From Chiloscyllium plagiosum (lineage: Eukaryota), in the NCBI RefSeq assembly GCF_004010195.1, contig NC_057754.1:4239937-4303936 (forward strand): a stretch of DNA of 64,000 bases, given 5' to 3'. The translations under genes were made by a program, and so were the position numbers. The notes beneath the pieces are model-generated. The model did no database searches. It saw only the letters and a list, made by a program, of their open reading frames with translations, and was not told the DNA's origin. This document shows positions 1,109 to 59,255 of the stretch, in pieces; positions within the stretch are counted from its first letter, which is position 1; every line of letters begins with the position of its first letter.

Positions 1109-1433
1109 ATAACAAGGTCAGCCAGGTGGACCTCACAGAATAGGAGTTCCCTGACTGGGGTCGTTAACCTGGTCCAATCAGGGAGCCATGGCTGACAAAG
1201 ATCAACAGGAGCGTTAGGGGGTAAACAAAACCAGATGTTGCTGGAAAAGCTCAGCCACGTCTGGCAGCATTTGTGAAAAGAAATCAGCATTTACATTTCG
1301 GGTCTGGTGACCCTCCCTCAGAACAGCGTCAGGGGTTCTGTGCACTCTGTGAGCTGGTTCTTAGGAAGCCAGATCTGCATCAATGACAATGCACTTGAGG
1401 GTGACAGGATACTAGTTTCTGTGGAGTTATTTC
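1109..1433 (+). mobile_element. Putative solo-LTR-like repeat, interrupted by a half palindromic element at ~1225-1325
   Basis: Similar to ~10997-11221; both end in agttatttca. LTR identity is inferred only. Confidence 0.4.
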
Positions 1434-1934: not shown

Positions 1935-2600
1935 TGGCCGAAAACAACAAATGCTGGAGATCACAGCGGGTCAGACAACCACACTCTCCATGGACAGACA
2001 GCAAGCCAACGTTTCAAACCTAGATGACTCTATATCAGAGCTGATGTGAAGTCTGGAGGGGACAATATCTTTGCAATAGTGCTGGGAGGTGGAGTGCTGG
2101 GGAAGAAAGGATGCTGATAGTTCAGATGAAGTGATCGGAGCATGAGGATGGCAGAACAATGATGTGTCTAACTGCCAGACTGGAGAGAACACACAGGGAG
2201 GGGAGAGAGAACATGGTGACAGAGAATGTAACAAGCAAAACTAAAAGAAATGGAAGGAATAGGTTCAAAATCTGAAGGTGTTAAAGTCCATATTGAGCCC
2301 AGAAGGTTGTAAAGAGCCTAGTTTAAAGATGAGATGTTGCTCCTCACTCTGCACTGTGATTCGCTGGAGCATCGCAGAGGTCAGACATATGAGAACGTGA
2401 GCAGGATACTGTGTTAAAAGTGGTCACCCAGTCCATATTTGGTTTCTCTAACGTAGGGTAGGCCACACTGGGTGCAGCGAATGCAGTACACAAGATAGGA
2501 GGAAATCCAGGTGAAATGCTGCTTCACCTGGAAAGACTGTTTAGGCCCTTGGAGAGTGAGCAGGGAGGCGGTGAAAGGGCACTCATGGAGTGGGCCCCTT
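1935..2600 (-). mobile_element. Penelope-like element remnant: GIY-YIG endonuclease fragment plus terminal repeat
   Basis: Minus-strand translation QGPKQSFQVKQHFTWISSYLVYCIRCTQCGLPYVRETKYGLGDHF resembles the PLE GIY-YIG (VYxIxCxxC..YIGET); decayed hammerhead-like core at 2038-2008. Confidence 0.8.
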
Positions 2601-3195: not shown

Positions 3196-3304
3196 CTGTG
3201 ATCGAGGAGAGACCAAGAGTATCAGTGACCGCACTGAACATAAACAAAGGCAGCAAAAAGAAAAGAAATGAACTGCGACGCTATGCCTGACCTGGGACAT
3301 GCAA

Positions 3305-4230
3305 ATGGAGCTTTACTCTGTGTCTAACCCCGTGCTGTCCCTCTCCTGAGGAGTGTTTGATGGGGGTCAGTGTAGAGGGAGCTTTACTCTGTATCTAACC
3401 CCGTGCTGTCCCTGTCCTAGGGTGTGTTTGATGGGGGATAGTGTAGAGGGAGCTTTACTCTGTATCTAACCCCGTGCTGTCCCTGTCCTGGGGAGTGTTT
3501 GATGGGGTACAGTATAGAGCGAGCTTTACTCTGTATCCAACCCTGTGCTATCCCTGTCCCTGGGAGTGTTTGATGGGGGACAGTGTAGAGAGGTAGCTTT
3601 ACTCTGTATCTAACCCCGTGCTGTCCCTGTCCTGGGGAGTGTTTGATGGGGACAGTGTAGAGAGAGCTTTACTTTGTATCTAACCCTGTGCTGTCCCTGT
3701 CCTGGGGAGTGTTTGATGGGGTACAGAATAGAGCGAGCTTTACTCTGTGTCTAACCCCGTGCTGTCCCTGTCCTGGGAGTGTTTGATAGGGACAGTGTAG
3801 AGAGAGCTTTACTCTGTATCTAACCCTGTGTTGTCCTTGTCCTGGGAGTGTTTGATGGGGGACAACGTAGACTGAGCTTTACTCTGTATCTAACCCCATG
3901 CTGTCCCTGTCCTGGGAGTGTTTGTTAGGGACAGTGTAGAGAGGGAGCTTTACTCTGTATCTAACCCCGTGTTGTCCCTGTCCTGGGAGTGTTTGATGGG
4001 GGACAATGTACAGGGAACTTTGCTCTGTATCTAACCACGTGCTGTCCCTGTCCTGGGGAGTGTTTGATGGGGATAGTGTAGAGGAAACTTTACTCTGTAC
4101 CTAACCCTGTGCTTTCCTCTCCTTGGAATGCTTGATGAGGACCATGTAAAGGGAGCTTTACTTTCTGTTTAAAGGTGTAGAGGGAGAATTATTTTCTGTT
4201 TAAAAGTGTAAAGAGAGCTTTACACTACAC
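3305..4230. repeat. ~70-bp minisatellite, about 13 copies, degenerating at the 3' end
   Basis: Unit gagctttactctgtatctaaccccgtgctgtccctgtcctgggagtgtttgatgggggacagtgtagagg. Confidence 0.95.
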
Positions 4231-5135: not shown

Positions 5136-5267
5136 ATTTGGAATCAGTCAGATGCAAGCAAACCACTGAAATCTTTGAAAGAATCTCAATCCCACATGAA
5201 ACAGGCAAGTTACTTCCTCATCCTTTTGCTCACAGTGCTTTTATGAAATCTGACACTGAGTAACTCG

Positions 5268-5398
5268 GTGTTGGACTGGGGTGGACAAAGTTAAAAATCA
5301 CACAACACCAGGTTATAATCCAACAAGTTTATTTGGAAGCACTAGCTTTTGAGGCGCTGTCTCTTAATGAATATAACCTTGTGTTATGTGATTGTTAA
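5268..5398. mobile_element. Internally deleted palindromic element, family B (same as 44819-45030)
   Basis: gttaaaaatcacacaacaccaggttata ... tataaccttgtgttatgtgattgttaac inverted arms. Confidence 0.7.
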
Positions 5399-5489
5399 CA
5401 AACTCTATAATAGCAGGCATAACTGAATCATTCTCTCTAACACCACCCCCCTCCTCGCAGTGTGTACTGTTCATTTACACTGTCATTTA

Positions 5490-6290: not shown

Positions 6291-6422
6291 CGACACAGAT
6301 GCTGCCCTCCGGGAGTTCCTGTAACTGGTAACCTCGGTAACAGCGGCAGCTGTAGGTACCGACGTAGTTGATGCACTCGCCTTTTCTGGCCCCACAGGGA
6401 TTGTCCTCACACTCGTTCACAT
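6291..6422 (-). CDS. LTBP3: LTBP3 exon ~13, cbEGF (DVNECEDNPCGARKGECINYVGTYSCRCYRGYQLQELPEGSICV)
   Basis: ccag|AT GTG ... GTC G|gtgagt; 132 nt, phase 1-1. Confidence 0.95.
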
Positions 6423-6504
6423 CTGGATGGGAAAGCACAGCAACTTTGCATTTACGTGGTGAGGTGCGGAAAGGCACCTCATCAGGAGCCTTGATCCCCC
6501 CACA

Positions 6505-6765
6505 ATTGCAGGTGTGACACTCGCCTGTTTACCTCCTCACTATCCAAGACCCCAGACACATCTTCCAGGTGAAGCAGCAATCCATCTGCACTTCCCCCCG
6601 TCTAGTCTACCACATTTGGGAAGATGATAACAGGCAAGAACACCTACGTTCTGTCTCCAAAAATGACCCAGAGTTTCCAGTTACCTGCCACTTCAATATG
6701 CCACCCTATTCCCTGGCCAACATCTCTGTCCCTGTCTAGTGAAGCTGGAAGAACAACATACAGTC
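6505..6765 (+). mobile_element. Penelope-like GIY-YIG remnant
   Basis: cttccaggtgaagcagcaatccatctgcacttcc...ctagtctac and ccagttacctgccacttcaat (PVTCHFN); similar to the reverse complement of 2480-2580. Confidence 0.6.
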
Positions 6766-7705: not shown

Positions 7706-8509
7706 CTGGGTTTAGGCAAATTCATTTGCAAACACACACCCTTGCCATTCCCATCACTCCACCAGCAGCCTCTGTAGTTCTGCAGTGACACTCCCTTGGA
7801 TGCATGGGTCCTTCAGTCTCTGGAATTCCTTCTCTAAATCTCTGTGCCTCTCTCTACTCCTTGAAACCAATCCCTCCACCTGAGCATTTGGTTACCTAAT
7901 GTGGAAATCAGGTGCAGCGGTAGGCCATTCGGCCCTTTAAGTCTGCTCCAATACCATCATCCAACTCAGTCCCTGTTCCTGCTTTCTCCCCCTCCCTCGA
8001 GCCCCAAGAACTAGATCCAACTCCTTCTTGGAAACATTTAATGTTTTGGCCCCAACCCCTTTCTGTGACAGAGAATCCCACAGGCTCCCCCACTCTCTGG
8101 GTGAAGACATTTCTCCCTATCTCAGTCCGAAACGGCTCACCCTGCCTCCTTCTCCTGTGACCCCCTGGTTCTGGACTCGCCCATCATTTTTGTTCATTCA
8201 GTCCCCGGACGAGGGTGTCACTGGGTAAGGGTAGCATTTAACGTCCATCCCTAATTGCCCAGAGGTTAGTTAAGAGTTAACAACGTTGCTGTGGGTCTGG
8301 TGTCAAATGTAGACCTGACTGGGTAAGGATGGCAGTACCCCTCCCCCTAAAGGACACTGGTGAACCCACATGGATTTTCCTGACCATCAACAATTAATCC
8401 ACGGTCATCATTAGACTCTTAATTCCAGATTTATTTTTTGATTTCACTGTCTGCAATGGTGGGATTTAAACCTAGGTCCCCAGAACATTACCTGGGGTTC
8501 TGGATTAAC

Positions 8510-8730
8510 AGTCGAGAGTGTGTTGCTGGAAAAGCACGGCAGGTCAGGCAGCATCCGAGGAGCAGGAGAATCAACGCTTCGGGCCAGAACTCTTCATCAG
8601 GAATACTGATGAAGGGCTCTGGCCCGAAACGTCGATTCTCCTGCTCCTTGGATGCTGCCCGACCGGCTGTGCTTTTCCAGCTCCACACTCTCGACTCTGA
8701 TCTCCAGCATCCGCAGTCCTCACTTCCCGC
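8510..8730 (+). mobile_element. Palindromic non-autonomous element (family A) with hammerhead-like core
   Basis: 91-nt inverted arms 8510-8600 and 8606-8696 plus a short tail; direct repeat tctggattaacagtc at 8499-8513 and 8731-8745. Confidence 0.85.
8601..8640 (+). ncRNA. Putative minimal type I hammerhead ribozyme motif
   Basis: CTGATGA(8606-12)-A-GGGC tctg GCCC-GAAA(8626-29)-CG-TC(8633); palindromic ACGT in place of stem III; GAAT/ATTC could form stem I. Activity not shown. Confidence 0.6.
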
Positions 8731-9129
8731 TCTGGATTAACAGTCCAGCGGTAATGTCACAGGGCCACAACATCGCTTGGGGTCAAATTTTGTCTGATTT
8801 ACTCTCCAAATGAAATGCTTCACTGAATCAGAGACAATATACAAATCCAACTTGCTGTTGTTGTGGGTGGCAGTCATTATTATTTGGTTCTTGCCGGTCT
8901 GGAATTCTCATCTCCTGGTTTCTATTCCATTCAATGGGACTGAAACTCCACCAACACGGGTTAGAGGTGACTCAGACACTAGAGGCAAGGGAAGGGTTTT
9001 CCAGAGATCCATTCAGACACCCCGGGGTGAATCTGGCTGTTCATTGAGAACAGAGTGAGTCTCAGCCCGTGAACTTTTCTGGGCAATCTCATTGAGGTCT
9101 ATGAGACGATGGAAGTTCTGCGATCCAGG

Positions 9130-15362: not shown

Positions 15363-15535
15363 CTGGGAAGGGAGAAAGCAAAACAAAAGGTTGAACTTTG
15401 TGGTGCTGGCATAGAGTCACATCTCAACTATCACAGAGAGACAAGAAAAGCAGTTTAATTCCCATTCTTTCATCTTCAAACCAGCTTGGACTAATCAGAA
15501 CAAATTCTCATCTCCCCTTTGGTTCTATCAGCTAG

Positions 15536-16100
15536 AACAGTGTAGAGGGAGGTTTACTCCGTGTCTAACCCCGTGCTGTCCCTGTCCTGGGGGTGTTTGA
15601 TGGGGGGACAGTGTAGAGAGAGCTTTACTCTGTGTCTAACCCCGTGCTGTCCCTGTCCTGGGAGTGTTTGATGGGGGACAGTGTAGAAAGACCTTTACTC
15701 TGTATCTAACCCCGCACTGTCCCTCTCCTGGGAGTGTTTGATGGGGAACAGTGTAGATGGAGCTTTACTCTGTATCTAACCGCATGCTGTCCCTGTCCTG
15801 GAAGTGTTTGATGGGGAACAGTGTAGAGGGAGCTTTACTCTGTATCTAACCTCATGCTGACCCTGTCCTGGAAGTGTTTGATGGGGAACAGTGTAGAGAG
15901 AGCTTTACTCTGTATCTAACCCCATGCTGACCCTGTCCTGGAAGTGTTTGATGGGGAACAGTGTAGAGAGAGGTTTATTTTGTATCTAACCCCATGCTGA
16001 CCCTGTCCTGGAAGTGTTTGATGGGGAACAGTGTAGAGAGAGGTTTATTTTGTATTTAACCCCATGCTGTCCCTGTCATGAAAGTATTCAATGGGATATT
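15536..16100. repeat. 70-bp minisatellite, about 8 copies, same unit as 3305-4230
   Basis: agctttactc recurs at 15761, 15831 and 15901. Confidence 0.95.
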
Positions 16101-16263
16101 GTATTACACTGGCTGACATAGTTCACTCAGCATGGAGTGCGACTTGTATCTAAAACTGCCCAGGTTTCAGTAGCATTGAGTGCTGCCTTTGTTCATGAGA
16201 CCACCATCTGACCAACATCAAGGGACCAGTCTATCCCCTCTGCAATAAGCAGTCAATACTCAC

Positions 16264-26694: not shown

Positions 26695-29600
26695 AATGTA
26701 TCCCACACCACACGTCACTCCATATATATCCCACACCCCCGACACTCCATATAATATATCCCACACCACCCATCACTCCATATAATATATCCCACACCAC
26801 CCGTCACTCCATATAATATATCCCACACTCCCGACACTCTGATTAATATATCCCACACCACCCGTCACTCCATATAATATATCCCACACCACCCATCACT
26901 CCATATAATATATCCCACACCACCCGTCACTCCATATAATATATCCCACACCCCCGACACTCTGATTAATATTTCCCACACCCCGACACTCTGATTAATA
27001 TATCCCACACCCCCGACACTCTGATATAATATATCCCACACCACCCGTCACTCCATATATATCCCACACACCTGACACTCCATATAATATATCCCACACC
27101 ACCCGTCACTCCATATATATCCCACACACCTGACACTCCATATAATATATCCCACACCACCCGTCACTCCATATATATCCCACACACCTGACACTCCATA
27201 TAATATATCCCACACCACCCGTCACTCCATATATATCCCACACACCTGACACTCCATATAATATATCCCACACCACCCGTCACTCCATATATATCCCACA
27301 CACCTGACACTCCATATAATATATCCCACACCACCCGTCACTCCATATATATCCCACACACCTGACACTCCATATAATATATCCCACACCACCCGTCACT
27401 CCATATATATCCCACACACCTGACACTCCATATAATATATCCCACACCACCCGTCACTCCATATATATCCCACACACCTGACACTCCATATAATATATCC
27501 CACACCACCCGTCACTCCATATATATCCCACACACCTGACACTCCATATAATATATCCCACACCACCCGTCACTCCATATATATCCCACACACCTGACAC
27601 TCCATATAATATATCCCACACCACCCGTCACTCCATATATATCCCACACACCTGACACTCCATATAATATATCCCACACCACCCGTCACTCCATATATAT
27701 CCCACACACCTGACACTCCATATAATATATCCCACACCACCCGTCACTCCATATATATCCCACACACCTGACACTCCATATAATATATCCCACACCACCC
27801 GTCACTCCATATATATCCCACACACCTGACACTCCATATAATATATCCCACACCACCCGTCACTCCATATATATCCCACACACCTGACACTCCATATAAT
27901 ATATCCCACACCACCCGTCACTCCATATATATCCCACACACCTGACACTCCATATAATATATCCCACACCACCCGTCACTCCATATATATCCCACACACC
28001 TGACACTCCATATAATATATCCCACACCACCCGTCACTCCATATATATCCCACACACCTGACACTCCATATAATATATCCCACACCACCCGTCACTCCAT
28101 ATATATCCCACACACCTGACACTCCATATAATATATCCCACACCACCCGTCACTCCATATATATCCCACACACCTGACACTCCATATAATATATCCCACA
28201 CCACCCGTCACTCCATATATATCCCACACACCTGACACTCCATATAATATATCCCACACCACCCGTCACTCCATATATATCCCACACACCTGACACTCCA
28301 TATAATATATCCCACACCACCCGTCACTCCATATATATCCCACACACCTGACACTCCATATAATATATCCCACACCACCCGTCACTCCATATATATCCCA
28401 CACACCTGACACTCCATATAATATATCCCACACCACCCGTCACTCCATATATATCCCACACACCTGACACTCCATATAATATATCCCACACCACCCGTCA
28501 CTCCATATATATCCCACACACCTGACACTCCATATAATATATCCCACACCACCCGTCACTCCATATATATCCCACACACCTGACACTCCATATAATATAT
28601 CCCACACCACCCGTCACTCCATATATATCCCACACACCTGACACTCCATATAATATATCCCACACCACCCGTCACTCCATATATATCCCACACACCTGAC
28701 ACTCCATATAATATATCCCACACCACCCGTCACTCCATATATATCCCACACACCTGACACTCCATATAATATATCCCACACCACCCGTCACTCCATATAT
28801 ATCCCACACACCTGACACTCCATATAATATATCCCACACCACCCGTCACTCCATATATATCCCACACACCTGACACTCCATATAATATATCCCACACCAC
28901 CCGTCACTCCATATATATCCCACACACCTGACACTCCATATAATATATCCCACACCACCCGTCACTCCATATATATCCCACACACCTGACACTCCATATA
29001 ATATATCCCACACCACCCGTCACTCCATATATATCCCACACACCTGACACTCCATATAATATATCCCACACCACCCGTCACTCCATATATATCCCACACA
29101 CCTGACACTCCATATAATATATCCCACACCACCCGTCACTCCATATATATCCCACACACCTGACACTCCATATAATATATCCCACACCACCCGTCACTCC
29201 ATATATATCCCACACACCTGACACTCCATATAATATATCCCACACCACCCGTCACTCCATATATATCCCACACACCTGACACTCCATATAATATATCCCA
29301 CACCACCCGTCACTCCATATATATCCCACACACCTGACACTCCATATAATATATCCCACACCACCCGTCACTCCATATATATCCCACACACCTGACACTC
29401 CATATAATATATCCCACACCACCCGTCACTCCATATATATCCCACACACCTGACACTCCATATAATATATCCCACACCACCCGTCACTCCATATATATCC
29501 CACACACCTGACACTCCATATAATATATCCCACACCACCCGTCACTCCATATATATCCCACACACCTGACACTCCATATAATATATCCCACACCACCCGT

Positions 29601-30180
29601 CACTCCATATATATCCCACACACCTGACACTCCATATAATATATCCCACACCACCCGTCACTCCATATATATCCCACACACCTGACACTCCATATAATAT
29701 ATCCCACACCACCCGTCACTCCATATATATCCCACACACCTGACACTCCATATAATATATCCCACACCACCCGTCACTCCATATATATCCCACACACCTG
29801 ACACTCCATATAATATATCCCACACCACCCGTCACTCCATATATATCCCACACACCTGACACTCCATATAATATATCCCACACCACCCGTCACTCCATAT
29901 ATATCCCACACACCTGACACTCCATATAATATATCCCACACCACCCGTCACTCCATATATATCCCACACACCTGACACTCCATATAATATATCCCACACC
30001 ACCCGTCACTCCATATATATCCCACACACCTGACACTCCATATAATATATCCCACACCACCCGTCACTCCATATATATCCCACACACCTGACACTCCATA
30101 TAATATATCCCACACCACCCGTCACTCCATATATATCCCACACACCTGACACTCCATATAATATATCCCACACCACCCGT
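26695..30180. repeat. Satellite array; from ~27030 an apparently perfect 58-bp (31+27) dimer, about 54 copies
   Basis: Unit ccatataatatatcccacaccacccgtcact+ccatatatatcccacacacctgacact; constant 2-nt shift per 60-nt line. Confidence 0.97.
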
Positions 30181-30540
30181 AGTGTAACACTCTCTGTTAT
30201 ACCCCACACCCCTCACTGTGACACTGTTTGGTATACCCACACCCCTCACTGTAACACTCTCTGATATACCCTACACCCCTCACTGTGACACTGTCTGGTA
30301 TATCCACACCCCTCACTGTAACACTCTCTGATATACCGCACACCTGTCAGTGTAACACTCTCTGTTATACCCCACACCCCTCACTGTGACACTGTTTGGT
30401 ATACCCACACCCCTCACTGTAACACTCTCTGATATACCCCACACCCCTCACTGTGACACTGTCTGGTATATCCACACCCCTCACTGTAACACTCTCTGAT
30501 ATACCGCACACCTGTCAGTGTAACACTCTCTGATATACTG
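30181..30540. repeat. ~34-bp satellite organised as a 168-bp higher-order repeat
   Basis: agtgtaacactctctg at 30181, 30349 and 30517; monomer ctcactgtaacactctctgatataccccacaccc. Confidence 0.9.
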
Positions 30541-35229: not shown

Positions 35230-36070
35230 CAAGATTAGTAAGCTTGCAGACAATACAAGGATCAGTGGAGTTGTGGATAGCATGGCAGGTTGTCAAAGGA
35301 TACTAGGAGAAAGTGAGGACTGCAGATGCTGGAGATCAGAGTCGAAAAGTGTGGCGCTGGAAAAGCACAGCAGGTCAGGCAGCATCCAAGGTGCAGGAGA
35401 GTCTACGTTTCGGGCACTGTTATGCCTGAAAGGTCAACTCTCCTGCTCCTCGGATGCTGTCTGACCTGTTGTGCTTTTCCAGCACCACACTTTTCAACGA
35501 CAGCTGTCAAAGGATACTGTGGAATATAGATTAGTTGCAGATATGACAGAGAACTGGCAGGTGGAATTTAAACCCGGTAAGTGTGAGGTGCTGCACCTTG
35601 GGAGATCAAATGTTAAGGGAAAGCATACAGTTAATGGCAGGACCCTGAACAGCATTGATGCACAGAGGCTCTTGGGGTACAGGTCCATCGCTTCCTGAAA
35701 GGGGCCACGCAAGCAGAAAGAGTATTTAAGAAGGTGTATGGCATGCTTGCTTTTATTGGGAAATTGAGTACGAGAGTCAGGATATCATGTTGCAGCTTTA
35801 TCAGACTTTGGTTCAGCCACACTTGGAGTATTGTGTTCAATTCTGGTCACTATATTATAGGACGGATATGGAGGCTTTGGAGAGGGTGCAGAAGAGGTTT
35901 ACCAGGATGCTGCTTGGATTAGAGTGTAGGAGCTGTAAGGAGAGGCTGGAAAAACTTAGGTTGTTTTCTCTGGAGGCTGAGGGGAGACTTGAGAGAAGGC
36001 TATAAAATTATGAGATGTATCGATAGGGTTGATGGTCAGAATCTTTTCCCCAGAGGTGAAATGCCTAGTT
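35230..36070 (+). mobile_element. CR1 LINE fragment interrupted at 35305-35504
   Basis: KISKLADNTRISGVVDS...WQVEFKPGKCEVLHLG...LVQPHLEYCVQFWS. Confidence 0.88.
35305..35504 (-). mobile_element. Palindromic element family A with deleted centre
   Basis: Inverted arms homologous to 8510-8696; 14-bp direct repeat tgtcaaaggatact at 35291-304 and 35505-518. Confidence 0.85.
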
Positions 36071-43060: not shown

Positions 43061-43624
43061 CTCTCACAATGTAAATGGGATTGTTGCATATTTATCAGGA
43101 GCCCTGAGAAATGGTACCTTCAAGCAGTTTATTAAACATGAAAGCTGCACTAACACCTGTCAGATGGGACAACTCTTGCTGCCTTCTGACGCGGATGCCA
43201 GACAATCCCATATCAAAGAAGAGAAAGGGGGTTCTCCAGGGTGCCCTGCAGCCAAGATGGATCTGTCTGACCCAAGATCAGGCAAGTAGGAACATCCGTC
43301 CATTAGTTCCACTTCTGGGTTCTTGCTGTGCACCGTGGTGCTTCTTACAATATGACAGCGGTAGCACTTTCAAGACTCCTTCTCTCAAAAGCGCTTCGGG
43401 ATGTCCTTGGGTTCCAAATGGCGCTACATAAATGCAAATCTTGCTTTCCTTTATGGAATTGGCGGGGGGATTCACAACTTAGACAACCTTTGTATTCCTT
43501 CACCTGCATACCTGACCTGACACGCGGAAAATTCTCCAAATCGAATCGGTGGTTTCAGTTCAGCACAAGTTCCGCCTCCCCTCGCCTTCAAGGATCTCAG
43601 TGAGACAGGCCAGTTCTGTGACAG

Positions 43625-43744
43625 GAATGAAGGGCTCCTGCCTGAAACGTCGACTTTCCTGCCTCCCAGATGCTGACTGACCTGCTGTGCTTTTCCAGCA
43701 CCGCTCTAAACTTGTCTCTGATCTCTAGCATCTGCACTTTCGCT
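43625..43744 (+). mobile_element. Single-arm (5'-truncated) family A element
   Basis: atgaagggctcctgcctgaaacgtcgac...tctgatctctagcatctgca; 14-bp direct repeat cagttctgtgacag at 43611-24 and 43745-58. Confidence 0.82.
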
Positions 43745-44818
43745 CAGTTCTGTGACAGCCAAGGGGCACGTGTGGCTGGAGTTACTGCTCGCGTTTAATT
43801 GTCTGAAACCAGTACTCACTGCTAGTCAAGCTTGGGTAACAGAAGCCAAGATGTAAGGAGCCATGGCCTTTTGGGGATTACCCAAAGTAACGATGGCATT
43901 ACCAACAATTCCAGAGAGGGGTAGGCACTGCTAAGTCACACTAGTATGCCCTAGCTGCTTTACAGAAGACAAACATTTCTGACATTGAGTCACATAACAA
44001 GGAGTTGTTTAAAGGAAGAGAGAATTGGAGTTGGAGTTGGAATTAGCCTTTATTGTTTCGTGCACTCAAATGAGTGCAGTGAAAAGTTTGCAATGTCGCC
44101 TTTTGGTACCATCTTGGATACAGAGTACCTAGGTACAGGTAGTTCTCCTATAATGTTGTTCCCCTTGCTATGTCTTGTTATAGAAAATTGTGCAACAGAA
44201 GTAATGGGGCTTAAATGCCAGGCTGGTACAAGCGCAATTTCCCAGTGTCACTGTCGTATTCCTGGCTTCTTGTGGAGTGGAGTTTACACAGAATCTGCCT
44301 CTCTGCCATTAAACTCTGTGAAACTTCCAGAAGTTGGGCAGGAATGGCTAAAGGGATGGGATGCTCTGAATGGCCAGGAGTTCTGACGGGACTCGGGTTT
44401 CAGAGAGAATGAGGCTCTCAGATCCTCCCCCTGCCCTTCAAACGGAGACTGGGTGAACGTGGATCAGGCAGAACTTGGGGATGGACTGGAGTGGGGAGAG
44501 ATGAAGGGGCTGGACACGGCTGCATTTGCACCTTCTTTTGCTCCCTATCTCTCTCTCTCTCTTCCCGCTCCTATGCCTCCCAACTCTGTGCATGATCCCA
44601 ATAAGCATTCCAGCAAATATATTCCAATGTTCGCTTCCCCTACTTTAGTTGCAGACAGAAGCAATAAAAAAACAAATACACACACACAGACGGCAACCTA
44701 TTGCAATGGATAAGCCAGCAGAATAAATCTCATCTGGCTGGTAATACAGGGGATGGAATTGCACAACAGCAAACAGGACTTCACCTTATAATAAAAATGG
44801 TGAGCTAACATAACCAGG

Positions 44819-45030
44819 TTAAAAATCACATGACACCAGGTTATAGTCAAACCGGTTTAGTTGGAAGCACTAGCTTTCAGAGTGCTGCTCCTTCCTCAGG
44901 TGGTTGTGATGAAGGAGCGTCGCTCCGAAAGCTAGTGCTTCCAAGTAAACCTTCCAAGTTGGACTATAACCTGGTGTCGTGTGATTTGTAACTTTGGCCA
45001 CCCCAGTCCAACACTGACATCTCCGAATCA
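44819..45030 (+). mobile_element. Palindromic element family B with hammerhead-like cores on both strands
   Basis: Inverted arms centred near 44903; 13-bp direct repeat taacataaccagg at 44806-18 and 45031-43. Confidence 0.85.
44868..44902 (-). ncRNA. Putative minimal hammerhead ribozyme motif on the LTBP3 sense strand
   Basis: Minus strand reads CAC-CTGAGGA-A-GGAG cagca CTCT-GAAA-GC-TA-GTG. Confidence 0.5.
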
Positions 45031-45479
45031 TAACATAACCAGGAGATTTAGAGTATCCAAAAAAATGGGTGAGCAATTCACAAATCGCATTTACGAAATG
45101 CATGTTACAGGAGAACTACCCGTACAGATACTTTAAGCGTTTGTTACAGAATTGAAAGAGTGACAGAAGTAGCTTAGCACAGGAATGCAAAGTCTTAAAA
45201 AGTTGTCAAATTAAGGGCCTTTTCACTTGAGTCTGTGTCCACCATGTTTCAGGGGTGGGGGGTGCTTGGTGGGAGGTCTATGCTTGGAAGTGTACAGCCT
45301 CAGACCCTGGGCGGCTGAATGCATCGGAATAAGTGATGGAAACCGGAGAATGCTGAAGGGATTAACACTGGAACATACACTCAGTCAGATGCAAAATCTC
45401 AGGAGCAAACTGCAGGCGCTGCACCGAGCAAACCGGTTACCTCAGGAGCAGTGCATAGACTGTCCAATCCCAAAAGGCT

Positions 45480-46122
45480 GAGCTAGTTACAGCTTAGTAA
45501 CAGCGGCCCCAGTGCAGAGAGGGGATAGTCCACGCTGATGTCATAACCACTCCCCTCCCCCCCCAAACACCCACACACACATGCACGCACACACACACAT
45601 GCATGCATACACATATAGGTTTGTGGGGTGAATTTGTACTTGCAGAATTACATTTTACTTTGCTCAAAAACTGCATGAATCCATATAAGATTCTGTAAAT
45701 CCGTTTTTTAGATCAGAATCATCCTGACCATTGTGGCACGGACAGTCTCACACAGGGCAGCTCACACCTTCAATACATTATCTGGGCCAACATGACAGCA
45801 ATTGTTAAAGTTCACTTGAGAATGTAACTTTTACAAAAGTTTTACGATTTACATAGGAAAGAAGTGAAACCACATAGTCATTCTAAAAGATGAGAGACTT
45901 AACAAACAATCCTGGTCTTATTAAATATATCATTTCAGTTACATCACACTGTAAACCTTTGCTATAAATTCTGTGTCTTATGATCTTACTCTCCACAACC
46001 ACCTGACGAAGGAGCAGTGGTCCAAAAGTTAGTGTTTCCAAATAAACCTGTTGGACTATAACCTGGTGTTGTGAGATTTTTAACTCTGTACGCCCCAGTC
46101 CAACCCCGGCATCTCCAACTCA
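45480..46122 (+). mobile_element. Longer family B (Penelope-like terminal region) copy ending ~30 bp from the exon ~4 donor
   Basis: Ends with the family B arm (cacctgacgaaggagcag...ggactataacctggtgttgtgagatttttaac...ccccagtccaac); internal (CA)n. Confidence 0.65.
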
Positions 46123-52252: not shown

Positions 52253-52487
52253 TAGTTCTCCTGAATTTTCAACTGAATTTATTAGCCTGTATTATATTGT
52301 CCAGAGCTCTAGTAATCAATTAACGAATCAGTTAGGGAGGTGTTGGCCCTAGTATTATCACTAGACTGTTAATCCAGAGACCTAGGTAATTAGCTGGGTT
52401 CAAATCCTGCCATGGCAGATGGTGAAGTTTGAGTTCAATTTAAAAAATCTGGACTTAAATGTCTACTGATGACCATGAAACCATTGC

Positions 52488-52695
52488 AGAAGTTGCTGGA
52501 AAAGCTCAACAGATCTGTCAGCATCTGTGAAGAGAAATCAGAGTTAATGTTTCAGGTCTGGTGACCCTTCCTCAGAACTGGAGAAGAGTCACCAGACCCA
52601 ATCATTAATTCTGATTTCCCTTCACAGATGCTGCCAGGCCTGCTGAGCTTTTCCAGAAATTTCTGTTTTTGTTTCTGTTTTACAGTATCCACAGT
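52488..52695 (+). mobile_element. Palindromic element (family A-related), its tail interrupted by an HE1 copy
   Basis: Arms gaagttgctggaaaagctca...tgagcttttccagaaatttc; 13-bp direct repeat atgaaaccattgc at 52475-87 and 53027-39. Confidence 0.8.
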
Positions 52696-53010
52696 TTAGA
52701 TTAGATTAGATTACAGTGTGGAAACAGGCCCTTTGGCCCAACAAGTCCACACCGACCCGCCGAAGCACAACCCACCCATACATTTACCCCTTCACCTAAC
52801 ACTACGGGCAATTTAGCATAGCCAATTCCCCTGACCTGCACATCTTTGGACTGTGGGAGGAAACCGGAGCACCCGACCCGGAGGAAACCCACGCAGACAC
52901 GGGGAGAATGTGCAAACTCCACACAGTCAGTCGCCTGAGGCGGGAATTGAACCCGGGTCTCAGGCGCAGTGAGGCAGCAGTGCTAACCACTGTGCCACCG
53001 TGCTGCCCAC
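52696..53010 (-). mobile_element. Full-length young HE1-like V-SINE
   Basis: Near reverse complement of 34099-34460, with (ttaga)n tail. Confidence 0.93.
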
Positions 53011-53289
53011 TTTTGGATTTTAACCAATGAAACCATTGCTGATTATTGGAAAAGCCCATCTGGGTCACTAACGTCCTTTAGGGAAGGAAACTGCCACCTT
53101 TACCTTGTCTGGCCTACATGTGACTCCAGACCCACAGCGATGTGGCTGACTTTTAACTTTGTACTGGGCAACTAGGGACAGGGCTATAAATGCTGGCCTA
53201 GCCAGTGATGTCCACATCCTGTGAGTGAATAAATTTATAAAAATGGCCACATAAGATGGGTAAAAAAACACACTTAAGAGCTACTTTGG

Positions 53290-56900: not shown

Positions 56901-56911
56901 AGAAATACTCC

Positions 56912-57165
56912 ATATCTAACCCTGTGCTTACCTGACCAGGGAATGTTTGATGGCGACAGTGTAGAGGGATCTTTACTCTTTTTCTAACCCCGTGCTGTCC
57001 CTATCCTGGGAGTGTTTGATGAGGGACAGTGTAGAGGAAGTTTTACTCTGTGTCTAACCCCGTGCTGTCCCTATCCTGGGAGTGTTTGCTAGCGGACAGT
57101 GTAGAGGGAGCTTTACTCTGTATCTAACCCCATGCTGCAGCTGCCCAGAGAGTGTTTGACACCTT
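56912..57165. repeat. 70-bp minisatellite, 3-4 copies (third array of this unit)
   Basis: Same unit as 3305-4230. Confidence 0.9.
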
Positions 57166-58679: not shown

Positions 58680-59255
58680 ATTCACAGGATGTGGGTGTCA
58701 TTGACCAGTCCGGCATATATTACTCATCCTTAGTTGCCCAGAGGGCAGTTAAGAGCCAACCACATTACTATGGGTCTGGAGTCACAGGTAGGCCAGACCA
58801 AGTATAGGGTTCCCTTCCATAAAGGAAGTTAGTGAACCAGATAATGGGCTTTTTCTGACAATTGCCAATGGTTTCATGGTCATCATTAGCACCTTCATTC
58901 CAGATTTTTATTGAATTCAAACTCCACCATCTGTCATGGCGGGATTTGAACCCAGGTCCCCAACACATTTACCTCGGTCTCTGGATTAACCCAAAATGAA
59001 GACCTGTGGTTGCTAGAAACCTGAAGCAAAAACAGAAAGTGCTGGAGAAACTCAGCAGGTCTGGCAGCAGCTGTGGAGAGAGAAAGCAGAGTTAGTGTTT
59101 CAAGTCCAGTGACCCTTCTTCAGAAATGTTCCGGACGTCAAATGTTGACCGCTTTCTCTCCACGGATACTGCTAGACCTGCGGAGTTTCTCCAACAATTT
59201 TCTGTTTTCCGTCTCTGAATTAATAGTCTGGTTGTAATACCACTAGACCACTGTT
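58680..59255 (-). mobile_element. SacSINE-like SINE interrupted by a palindromic element at 58990-59210
   Basis: Target duplication gtctctggattaa (58977-89) and gtctctgaattaa (59211-23); insert has inverted arms aaaacagaaagtgctggagaaactc...gagtttctccaacaattttctgtttt. Confidence 0.8.

What the first reader, a model, noticed from the sequence alone, without database searches (positions are those of the whole stretch)
8499..8745. Mobile palindrome with a hammerhead-ribozyme core and a 15-bp target-site duplication
Seen: a 187-nt hairpin (arms 8510-8600 and 8606-8696) whose right arm starts CTGATGA-A-GGGC-tctg-GCCC-GAAA-CG-TC, flanked by tctggattaacagtc twice. Six such insertions in this window (8510, 35305, 43625, 44819, 52488, 58990) have 13-15 bp duplications and no coding capacity. 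Established: Penelope-like elements carry minimal type I hammerheads with a palindromic tetranucleotide stem III in their terminal repeats, and often show inverted terminal-repeat structures. Inference: these are ribozyme-bearing Penelope-derived mini-elements inserted by target-primed reverse transcription, which could easily be mislabelled as DNA MITEs. The copy on the LTBP3 sense strand is broken (GAAG, mismatched stem II) while the antisense core is intact.
Basis: partly seen in the sequence, partly recalled or inferred. Interest (0 to 1): 0.75.

Follow-up and report, generated by a model that had tools for sequence, protein, structure and literature searches.

The report
Hairpin stub of a Penelope retroelement
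This 217-base hairpin in an intron of a shark gene is a real insertion, most likely the dead, mirror-doubled tail end of a Penelope-like jumping gene carrying that family's known mini hammerhead motif, so it is a neat example of a known kind rather than a new self-spreading element.

Summary
8514-8730 lies between exact 15-nt duplications, forms a 91-bp hairpin and has a minimal hammerhead core (8606-8633). It is asymmetric: only the direct arm has a 34-nt extension, the Penelope-like element (PLE) 'tail'.

The six listed insertions have 13-15 nt duplications, but they belong to three sequence families. One (43625) has no second arm, and every hairpin centre differs.

PLE origin is supported. 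A GIY-YIG remnant in the window (2581-2280) runs into a related arm with a decayed core. The same core lies downstream of PLE protein sequence in 32 of 87 metagenome host-DNA loci, with covarying stem I.

In the hairpin RNA the ribozyme fold is predicted to be shut (stem II probability about 0; 38.8 kcal/mol penalty), and stem I's closing pair is broken.

Inverted repeat, one-sided tail and minimal hammerhead are all published PLE features. The useful extra: in 3 of 6 hairpins neither arm can be a copy of the other, which favours two separate priming events.

The parts
8499..8513 (.). left target-site duplication (15 nt); its last 4 nt also match the continuation of the inverted arm (microhomology)
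8514..8604 (-). inverted, tail-less copy of the PLE 3' end; broken hammerhead core at 8600-8573; reaches 4 nt further upstream of the core than the direct arm
   Evidence: native upstream from loose ends
8606..8696 (+). direct copy of the PLE 3' end (pseudo-LTR stub), starting exactly at the hammerhead core
8606..8633 (+). minimal type I hammerhead core: CUGAUGA, unpaired A, 4-bp stem II, GAAA, palindromic ACGU, C17; closing pair of stem I mismatched
   Evidence: consensus in PMC4209133
8697..8730 (+). 34-nt one-sided 'tail'
   Evidence: family-wide 3' end near 8725-8731
8731..8745 (.). right target-site duplication (15 nt, identical)
8246..8775 (.). older dispersed repeat that was the target (SINE-like; that label is recalled and untested), split by the insertion; lies in an LTBP3 intron
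35291..35518 (-). family A hairpin, 14-nt duplication, both arms start inside stem II, tail on the left
43611..43758 (+). family A single arm plus tail, 14-nt duplication, no inverted arm
44806..45043 (+). family C hairpin, 13-nt duplication; core variant with palindromic AGCU and 5-bp stem II
52475..53039 (+). family B hairpin, 13-nt duplication, tail interrupted by a nested repeat at about 52697-53010
58977..59223 (-). family B hairpin, 13-nt duplication with one mismatch, inserted in the same host repeat family at an overlapping site
1940..2587 (-). longer 5'-truncated PLE: GIY-YIG remnant (2587-2271, broken by stops and frame changes), about 240 nt of 3' UTR, then a decayed core and A/B-type arm (2043-1940)
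   Evidence: (E 0.0018 with a profile not trained on it)
46001..46121 (+). family C single arm; 5' end not determined
1217..1327 (-). family B single arm; no duplication found

Best explanation
The insertion is likely a dead-on-arrival stub of an endonuclease-bearing Penelope-like retroelement: two short copies of the element's hammerhead-bearing terminal repeat, joined head to head, probably built anew at this site by two separate priming events. SHOWN: the anatomy, the duplication, the asymmetry, the variable centres, and the link of this core and of a related arm to GIY-YIG sequence. INFERRED: the PLE protein cut both DNA strands 15 nt apart. One cut primed reverse transcription at the distal start site (arm plus 34-nt tail), the other at the proximal start site (tail-less arm). 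Both cDNAs ended near the hammerhead core and were joined by end-joining; filling the staggered cut gave the duplication. The template was uncleaved RNA, since both arms keep sequence 5' of the predicted cut. Once inserted, the motif is a passenger, predicted to be buried in the hairpin. My odds by step: PLE stub about 0.95; built anew rather than copied as a unit about 0.83; two priming events rather than fold-back about 2 to 1.
For: One-sided 34-nt tail and inverted tail-less arm match published PLE insertion anatomy (PMC3846280, PMC8557442). In vitro a PLE protein cuts and extends both strands from two internal start sites that bound the tail, using uncleaved RNA (PMC11167929). Outer ends of the tail-less arms are fixed within a family (A +87/+86, C +81/+82 from the core C; B +89/+95) while inner ends vary in all six hairpins. 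In 8514, 52488 and 44819 the tail-less arm reaches 4-9 nt further upstream than the tail-bearing arm, so neither arm can be a copy of the other. An in-window GIY-YIG remnant leads into an A/B-type arm; its best relatives are ray and whale-shark proteins, and its full-length relatives carry RT plus GIY-YIG. Of 87 metagenome loci with the same core, 35 have PLE-protein hits and 32 have them upstream on the same strand; this includes the 9 loci that supplied the queries, and some loci are redundant. Stem I, not part of the search pattern, pairs in 56, 58, 54 and 36 of 66 contexts, 0 of 2000 shuffles. Hairpins there have 13-14 nt duplications in 5 cases and spacers up to 1253 nt. Stem II probability is about 0 in the hairpin and 0.998 in a lone arm.
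Against: Family A itself was not joined to a PLE reading frame: the in-window link is through a B-like arm, and the family A upstream motif is absent from the window. No whole genome was available, so breakpoints were counted on six hairpins only. Later deletions at hairpin centres could create both the variable centres and the 4-9 nt asymmetries. In 2 of 6 hairpins (58990, 5256) the tail-bearing arm is the longer one, as fold-back predicts. Rough arithmetic on read depth at 8601-8612 leaves about a hundred reads per position over 8601-8605, so a recurrent centre type is not excluded. Hairpins collapse in assembled contigs and may be under-read in libraries. Native stem I of family A looks weak (2 pairs, a mismatch, 1 pair).
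Confidence: 0.55

Rival explanations
1. Same PLE stub, also built anew at each insertion, but the mirror arm arises by self-priming or fold-back of one nascent strand (the model proposed in PMC3846280), and the uneven centres are later deletions.
For: PMC3846280 reads palindromes at inverted junctions as self-priming. In 58990 and 5256 the inverted arm is nested within the direct arm. Both arms of 8514 share a rare loop letter (G at 8621; about 96% of family depth has T there), so they come from one template or subfamily.
Against: In 3 of 6 hairpins the tail-less arm has upstream bases that the tail-bearing arm lacks. The fixed outer end of the tail-less arm matches a second reverse-transcription start site seen in vitro (PMC11167929).
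Confidence: 0.28
2. A self-propagating non-autonomous family: a fixed hairpin master is transcribed and mobilised as a unit by PLE proteins, with the hammerhead processing its RNA.
For: Very high abundance: 59,537 of 23.6 million contigs of one DNA run lie on this arm (not a copy number). Most arms stop near the core, giving a fairly uniform size. Non-autonomous PLE derivatives with hammerheads exist (retrozymes, bioRxiv 10.64898/2026.07.22.740005). Some reads may share a centre like that of 8514 (rough).
Against: All six centres differ; single-arm and long versions of the same ends coexist. The dominant 5' loose end is native upstream sequence in all four runs, and no strand-switch joint with RNA-read support appears among the 15 joints shown, with 36 more not shown. 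The hairpin costs 38.8 kcal/mol to open into the core fold. The one pair of metagenome hairpins with the same centre proved to be the same locus.
Confidence: 0.12
3. A DNA MITE (cut-and-paste, terminal inverted repeats) whose hammerhead-like string is incidental.
For: Short, non-coding, palindromic and flanked by duplications.
Against: The ends are not symmetrical (one-sided tail). Duplications are 13-15 nt rather than a fixed 2-10 nt (superfamily sizes recalled). Single-arm insertions carry the same duplication. The arm type follows a GIY-YIG frame, and three families keep the core with different stems.
Confidence: 0.02

Closest known systems
Insertion units of endonuclease-bearing Penelope-like elements with inverted pseudo-LTR and one-sided tail (PMC3846280; PMC8557442 Fig. 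2 legend; PMC2377424)
   Same: Head-to-head inverted 5'-truncated copy, 30-40 nt tail on one end only (34 nt here; 34 bp in D. virilis, 31 bp in A. vaga), target duplication, heavy 5' truncation.
   Different: Extreme truncation: only about 90-125 nt per arm and no reading frame. Duplications are 13-15 nt here versus 8-10 bp in the A. vaga examples read.
Minimal hammerheads (min-HHR) of metazoan PLE terminal repeats (PMC4209133)
   Same: CUGANGA, unpaired base, G10.1-C11.1, GAAA, palindromic 15.2-16.2, UH. Near-identical cores are listed for cnidarian elements in its Fig. S3. The paper notes opposite-strand pairs 100-700 bp apart and mostly solitary, truncated copies.
   Different: No cartilaginous fish among the Fig. 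S3 rows I read, and 0 hits for shark terms in the 2 supplement files searched. Stem II is only 4 bp and stem I is weak in family A.
Poseidon of Anolis carolinensis (PAc), in vitro mechanism (PMC11167929)
   Same: Two internal RT start sites bounding the tail, both strands cut and extended, uncleaved RNA as template, hammerhead active only with the protein present.
   Different: In the parts read, it does not describe joining of the two products into a hairpin or report truncation clustering at the hammerhead.
Animal non-LTR retrozymes (bioRxiv 10.64898/2026.07.22.740005; PMC7229834 seen as a search listing only)
   Same: Non-coding, hammerhead-bearing, derived from PLE terminal repeats; reported in one chondrichthyan.
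   Different: Retrozymes are head-to-tail tandem arrays that allow dimeric cleavage. These insertions are head-to-head or single, which blocks it.

Membership tests
EN+ Penelope-like element insertion (truncated) | Terminal sequence lies downstream of a GIY-YIG endonuclease (after RT) on the same strand | tested here: met
   Met for the A/B-type arm at 2043-1940 and for the identical core in other animals
EN+ Penelope-like element insertion (truncated) | Family A arm joined to its own full-length RT + GIY-YIG frame | not testable with these tools
   No genome held; the family A upstream motif is not in the window
EN+ Penelope-like element insertion (truncated) | 30-40 nt tail on one end only | tested here: met
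   34 nt at 8697-8730; one-sided extensions also in 35305, 44819, 52488, 58990
EN+ Penelope-like element insertion (truncated) | Variable 5' truncation with optional inverted copy | tested here: met
   Six different centres, single-arm and long copies
EN+ Penelope-like element insertion (truncated) | Target-site duplication of variable length | tested here: met
   13, 13, 13, 14, 14, 15 nt; none found for 5256, 1217 or 1940
Minimal PLE hammerhead (min-HHR) | Core boxes, unpaired base, G10.1-C11.1 stem II, palindromic 15.1-16.1, UH | tested here: met
   8606-8633
Minimal PLE hammerhead (min-HHR) | Stem I with a paired 1.1-2.1 closing pair | tested here: not met
   A-G at this copy because the junction replaced the upstream bases. 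Met with covariation in other animals' copies; only 2 contiguous pairs in native family A
Minimal PLE hammerhead (min-HHR) | Self-cleavage as a dimer or with protein | not testable with these tools
   Needs an assay. No start/end pile-up in the one raw RNA run laid, a poly(A) single-cell library poorly suited to show it
Non-LTR retrozyme | Head-to-tail tandem units each with a hammerhead | tested here: not met
   Head-to-head or single arms only
Self-propagating non-autonomous family | Fixed internal structure shared across unrelated loci | tested here: not met
   0 shared centres among 6 window hairpins; the genome-wide test is inconclusive
DNA MITE | Symmetric terminal inverted repeats abutting a fixed-length duplication | tested here: not met
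   One-sided tail; 13-15 nt duplications; single-arm insertions
Rfam hammerhead families | Score above the gathering threshold | tested here: not met
   0 hits in the window; only generic hairpin (miRNA-model) matches far below threshold at 8450-8800

The most novel reading that the evidence does not exclude
The stubs are a genome-wide footprint of the unsolved step in Penelope integration. The protein primes twice, once on each cut strand, on the 5' terminal repeat of its own mRNA; both cDNAs run off or stall at the hammerhead and are joined head to head. The hammerhead region would then set where copying stops, rather than act by cleavage. In the window 8 of 11 direct or single arms stop within about -6 to +20 nt of the core. 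In D. virilis the transcript starts 125 nt (about 50 nt spliced) upstream of the core (PMC2377424 with Table S1 of PMC4209133). The many shark copies would let this be tested by counting.
Probability: 0.3. Interest if true: 0.55.

Novelty: new member of a known kind. Interest (0 to 1): 0.25.

Why it matters
As an object it is ordinary: each feature is published for Penelope-like elements, and earlier notes of this scan met the same thing repeatedly in this genome. It has two uses. For annotation, such hairpins are easily mislabelled as DNA MITEs or miRNA-like hairpins, and they are very abundant here. For mechanism, how PLEs form their inverted repeats and one-sided tails is still open (PMC8557442, PMC11167929), and these short, duplication-bounded copies record both start sites and both stop sites in one piece.

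Tried and rejected
Whole-genome analysis: not possible, no genome held. Rfam: no hammerhead hit. Viral contigs: 0 matches to the core pattern. First protein search with the GIY-YIG remnant found nothing; the exhaustive search did. Pfam on 150 of 190 stop-to-stop frames found no PLE domain and nothing at the hairpin; the remnants appeared only by tblastn. Idea that the two arms came from different source copies: arms differ by 54 of 397 sites while duplications are nearly exact. Rejected as unproven, because 17 of the 54 are CpG-type, duplications were delimited by exact match, and arms are about as far from each other as from other copies, which age explains. Idea that organism B has an empty site: its contig merely ends at 8731, so presence or absence is undetermined. 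Selection against sense-strand ribozymes in LTBP3: no signal. Same-centre hairpins L016/L029 as proof of unit propagation: they are one locus. The first chance control (1663 of 20000) was inflated by tandem arrays and was redone. Two rows (43625, 2040) were mis-registered and are not used. No RNA holder of this locus was listed; reads of the family exist on both strands but none covers the unique flank 8769-8950, so expression of this copy is neither shown nor excluded. Lunse et al. on dimeric cleavage was not held by DOI and is known here only as cited in PMC6765202.

Full report
OBSERVATION. The window shows arms at 8510-8600 and 8606-8696, 89% complementary, folding at -162.3 kcal/mol with 0 of 200 shuffles as stable. 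An exact 15-mer flanks them at 8499-8513 and 8731-8745. The target is an older dispersed repeat. Another copy of it (52335-52420, minus strand) has the 15-mer once, so the duplication was made on insertion. The inserted DNA is 8514-8730 (217 nt): inverted arm 8514-8604, one junction base, direct arm 8606-8696, and a 34-nt tail present on one side only. The site is an intron of LTBP3, on the minus strand: EGF and TB exons lie on both sides, and one exon is 100% identical over 44 aa to a cluster named LTBP3 of Chiloscyllium punctatum. The host is therefore a bamboo shark or close relative (inference).

THE OTHER INSERTIONS. All six listed sites have 13-15 nt duplications, five exact and one with one mismatch. 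At 52488 the right copy lies beyond a nested repeat. Random anchor pairs give an exact 13-mer in 30 of 5000 trials. Profiles built from the arms sort them into families A (8514, 35305, 43625), B (52488, 58990, 1217, 33026) and C (44819, 46001, 5256). A and B cross-hit at E from 1e-11 to 1e-4; C hits neither. 43625 is a single arm. 5256-5399 is a further hairpin with a short inverted arm. The centres of the six hairpins all differ. The outer ends of the tail-less arms are nearly fixed per family (A +87/+86, C +81/+82, B +89/+95, counted from the core C), about 35-40 nt short of the tail end.

LINK TO PENELOPE-LIKE ELEMENTS. A search of metagenome contigs with the core pattern returned 87 loci of apparent animal host DNA, host not determined. 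They resemble the window only in the core. Eleven frames from 9 of these loci were scanned; 8 hit the GIY-YIG family, 7 above its cut-off. With those 11 as queries, 35 of 87 loci have PLE-protein hits, 32 of them upstream of the core on the same strand. This count includes the 9 source loci, and some contigs are redundant. The same queries found two remnants in the window, at 2581-2280 (minus) and 6536-6730 (plus). The first runs through about 240 nt into a decayed core and an arm that a family B profile, not trained on it, finds at E 0.0018. Its best relatives are ray and whale-shark proteins, and four long relatives carry RT plus GIY-YIG. No arm follows the second remnant. Family A itself was not joined to a reading frame. 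Laid reads and contigs give it a shared upstream stretch: the commonest loose end before 8606 has the same 8 letters next to the core in all four runs, not the mirror arm. A motif from that stretch is absent from the window.

THE HAMMERHEAD. 8606-8633 fits the minimal consensus of PMC4209133 (main text parts 1-2 of 4 and supplement file 2 parts 1-2 of 3 read). Rfam has no model that reaches threshold. The motif is real as a class. In 66 distinct metagenome contexts stem I, which the pattern did not specify, forms Watson-Crick pairs in 56, 58, 54 and 36 cases at positions 1-4; 0 of 2000 shuffles reach that, and slid controls give 19-35% against 77% (the rows are related, so this is not a probability). 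Families B and C keep the core with different stems, C with palindromic AGCU in place of ACGU. At this copy the closing pair of stem I is A-G. In the hairpin RNA, or in RNA made up to 8640, stem II has probability about 0, against 0.998 in a lone arm; forcing the core open costs 38.8 kcal/mol. On either strand the complementary arm is transcribed first. The motif here is therefore predicted to be inert. There is no sign of selective breakage on the gene's strand.

MECHANISM. PMC11167929 (parts 1-2 of 4) reports that a PLE protein cuts and extends both strands, starts at two internal sites that bound the tail, and uses uncleaved RNA. PMC3846280 (parts 1-4 of 5) and PMC8557442 (passages) describe the inverted truncated copy and the one-sided 30-40 nt tail. 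The window fits two priming events: fixed outer ends, variable inner ends, and in 8514, 52488 and 44819 a tail-less arm that reaches 4-9 nt further upstream than the tail-bearing arm, so neither is a copy of the other. Against this, 58990 and 5256 show the nested pattern expected of fold-back, and later deletions can reshape centres. Both arms of 8514 keep bases 5' of the predicted cut, so the template was uncleaved. Of 11 direct or single arms, 8 stop within about -6 to +20 nt of the core, one further in, one extends over 500 nt, and one is undetermined. Among metagenome loci, 26 of 85 contexts had an inverted arm (20 distinct insertions); 13 of the 20 have inner ends within 51 nt of the core and 7 beyond 150 nt; five have 13-14 nt duplications and one an 8-nt candidate. 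Run-off at the mRNA 5' end would explain the cluster. In D. virilis transcription starts at 371, the intron spans 416-491 (PMC2377424, passages) and the core is at 496. That step is inference.

SELF-PROPAGATION. Not supported in the window. Genome-wide it is not closed: depth arithmetic for the RNA run leaves roughly a hundred reads per position over 8601-8605, and hairpins are under-represented in contigs. 59,537 of 23.6 million contigs in one DNA run and 2,686 of 12.96 million RNA reads lie on the stretch; these reflect the family, not this copy.

NOVELTY. Seven full-text searches found no paper on such stubs in sharks. The library lacks most subscription journals, one supplement file of PMC4209133 and bioRxiv supplements were not visible, and repeat databases were not available, so the families may well be catalogued there. 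The retrozyme preprint (parts 1-3 of 5) covers tandem, not head-to-head, derivatives. PMC8969392 and PMC6765202 were read as passages. Seven earlier notes of this scan on the same genome reach the same reading; they are leads, not evidence. Verdict: real, a new member of a known kind, interest 0.25.

Noticed in passing
window 8499-8513 and 58977-58989; also 52475-52487: Two insertions of different families hit overlapping sites in copies of the same host repeat (both duplications contain the same 10 letters), and a third sits elsewhere in that repeat family. This could be a preferred target or only the repeat's abundance.
   Followed up: partly
window 6536-6730 (+): A second GIY-YIG remnant, with an internal deletion and no hammerhead arm after it, about 110 nt from the LTBP3 exon near 6292-6423.
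   Followed up: partly
window 35499-35508: Six extra bases between the inverted arm and the right duplication form a perfect 10-nt palindrome with the start of the duplication; possibly a small fold-back at the junction.
   Followed up: no
window 43622-43630: The first bases of the single-arm copy could be a 9-nt micro-inversion of the native upstream sequence with microhomology on both sides; two substitutions explain it equally well.
   Followed up: no
window 45540-46000: About 450 nt upstream of the family C arm at 46001, beginning after a CA-rich tract, may be that element's 3' UTR. No second copy in the window and no duplication were found.
   Followed up: partly
window 26695-30538: A 3.8-kb tandem array with a 116-nt period and very strong C-over-G skew; further arrays at 3294-4172, 15535-16103 and 56906-57159 share one 70-nt unit.
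   Followed up: no
arms of families A and B, e.g. window 8651-8730: The block conserved between A and B reads in one frame as a similar short peptide starting at an ATG; it may be the start of the PLE frame. Not tested.
   Followed up: no
L008, L019, L027, L060, L085: The same anatomy (head-to-head arms, one-sided extension, 13-14 nt duplication) occurs with an identical core in unrelated animal DNA, so the duplication length may be a conserved property of this endonuclease group.
   Followed up: partly
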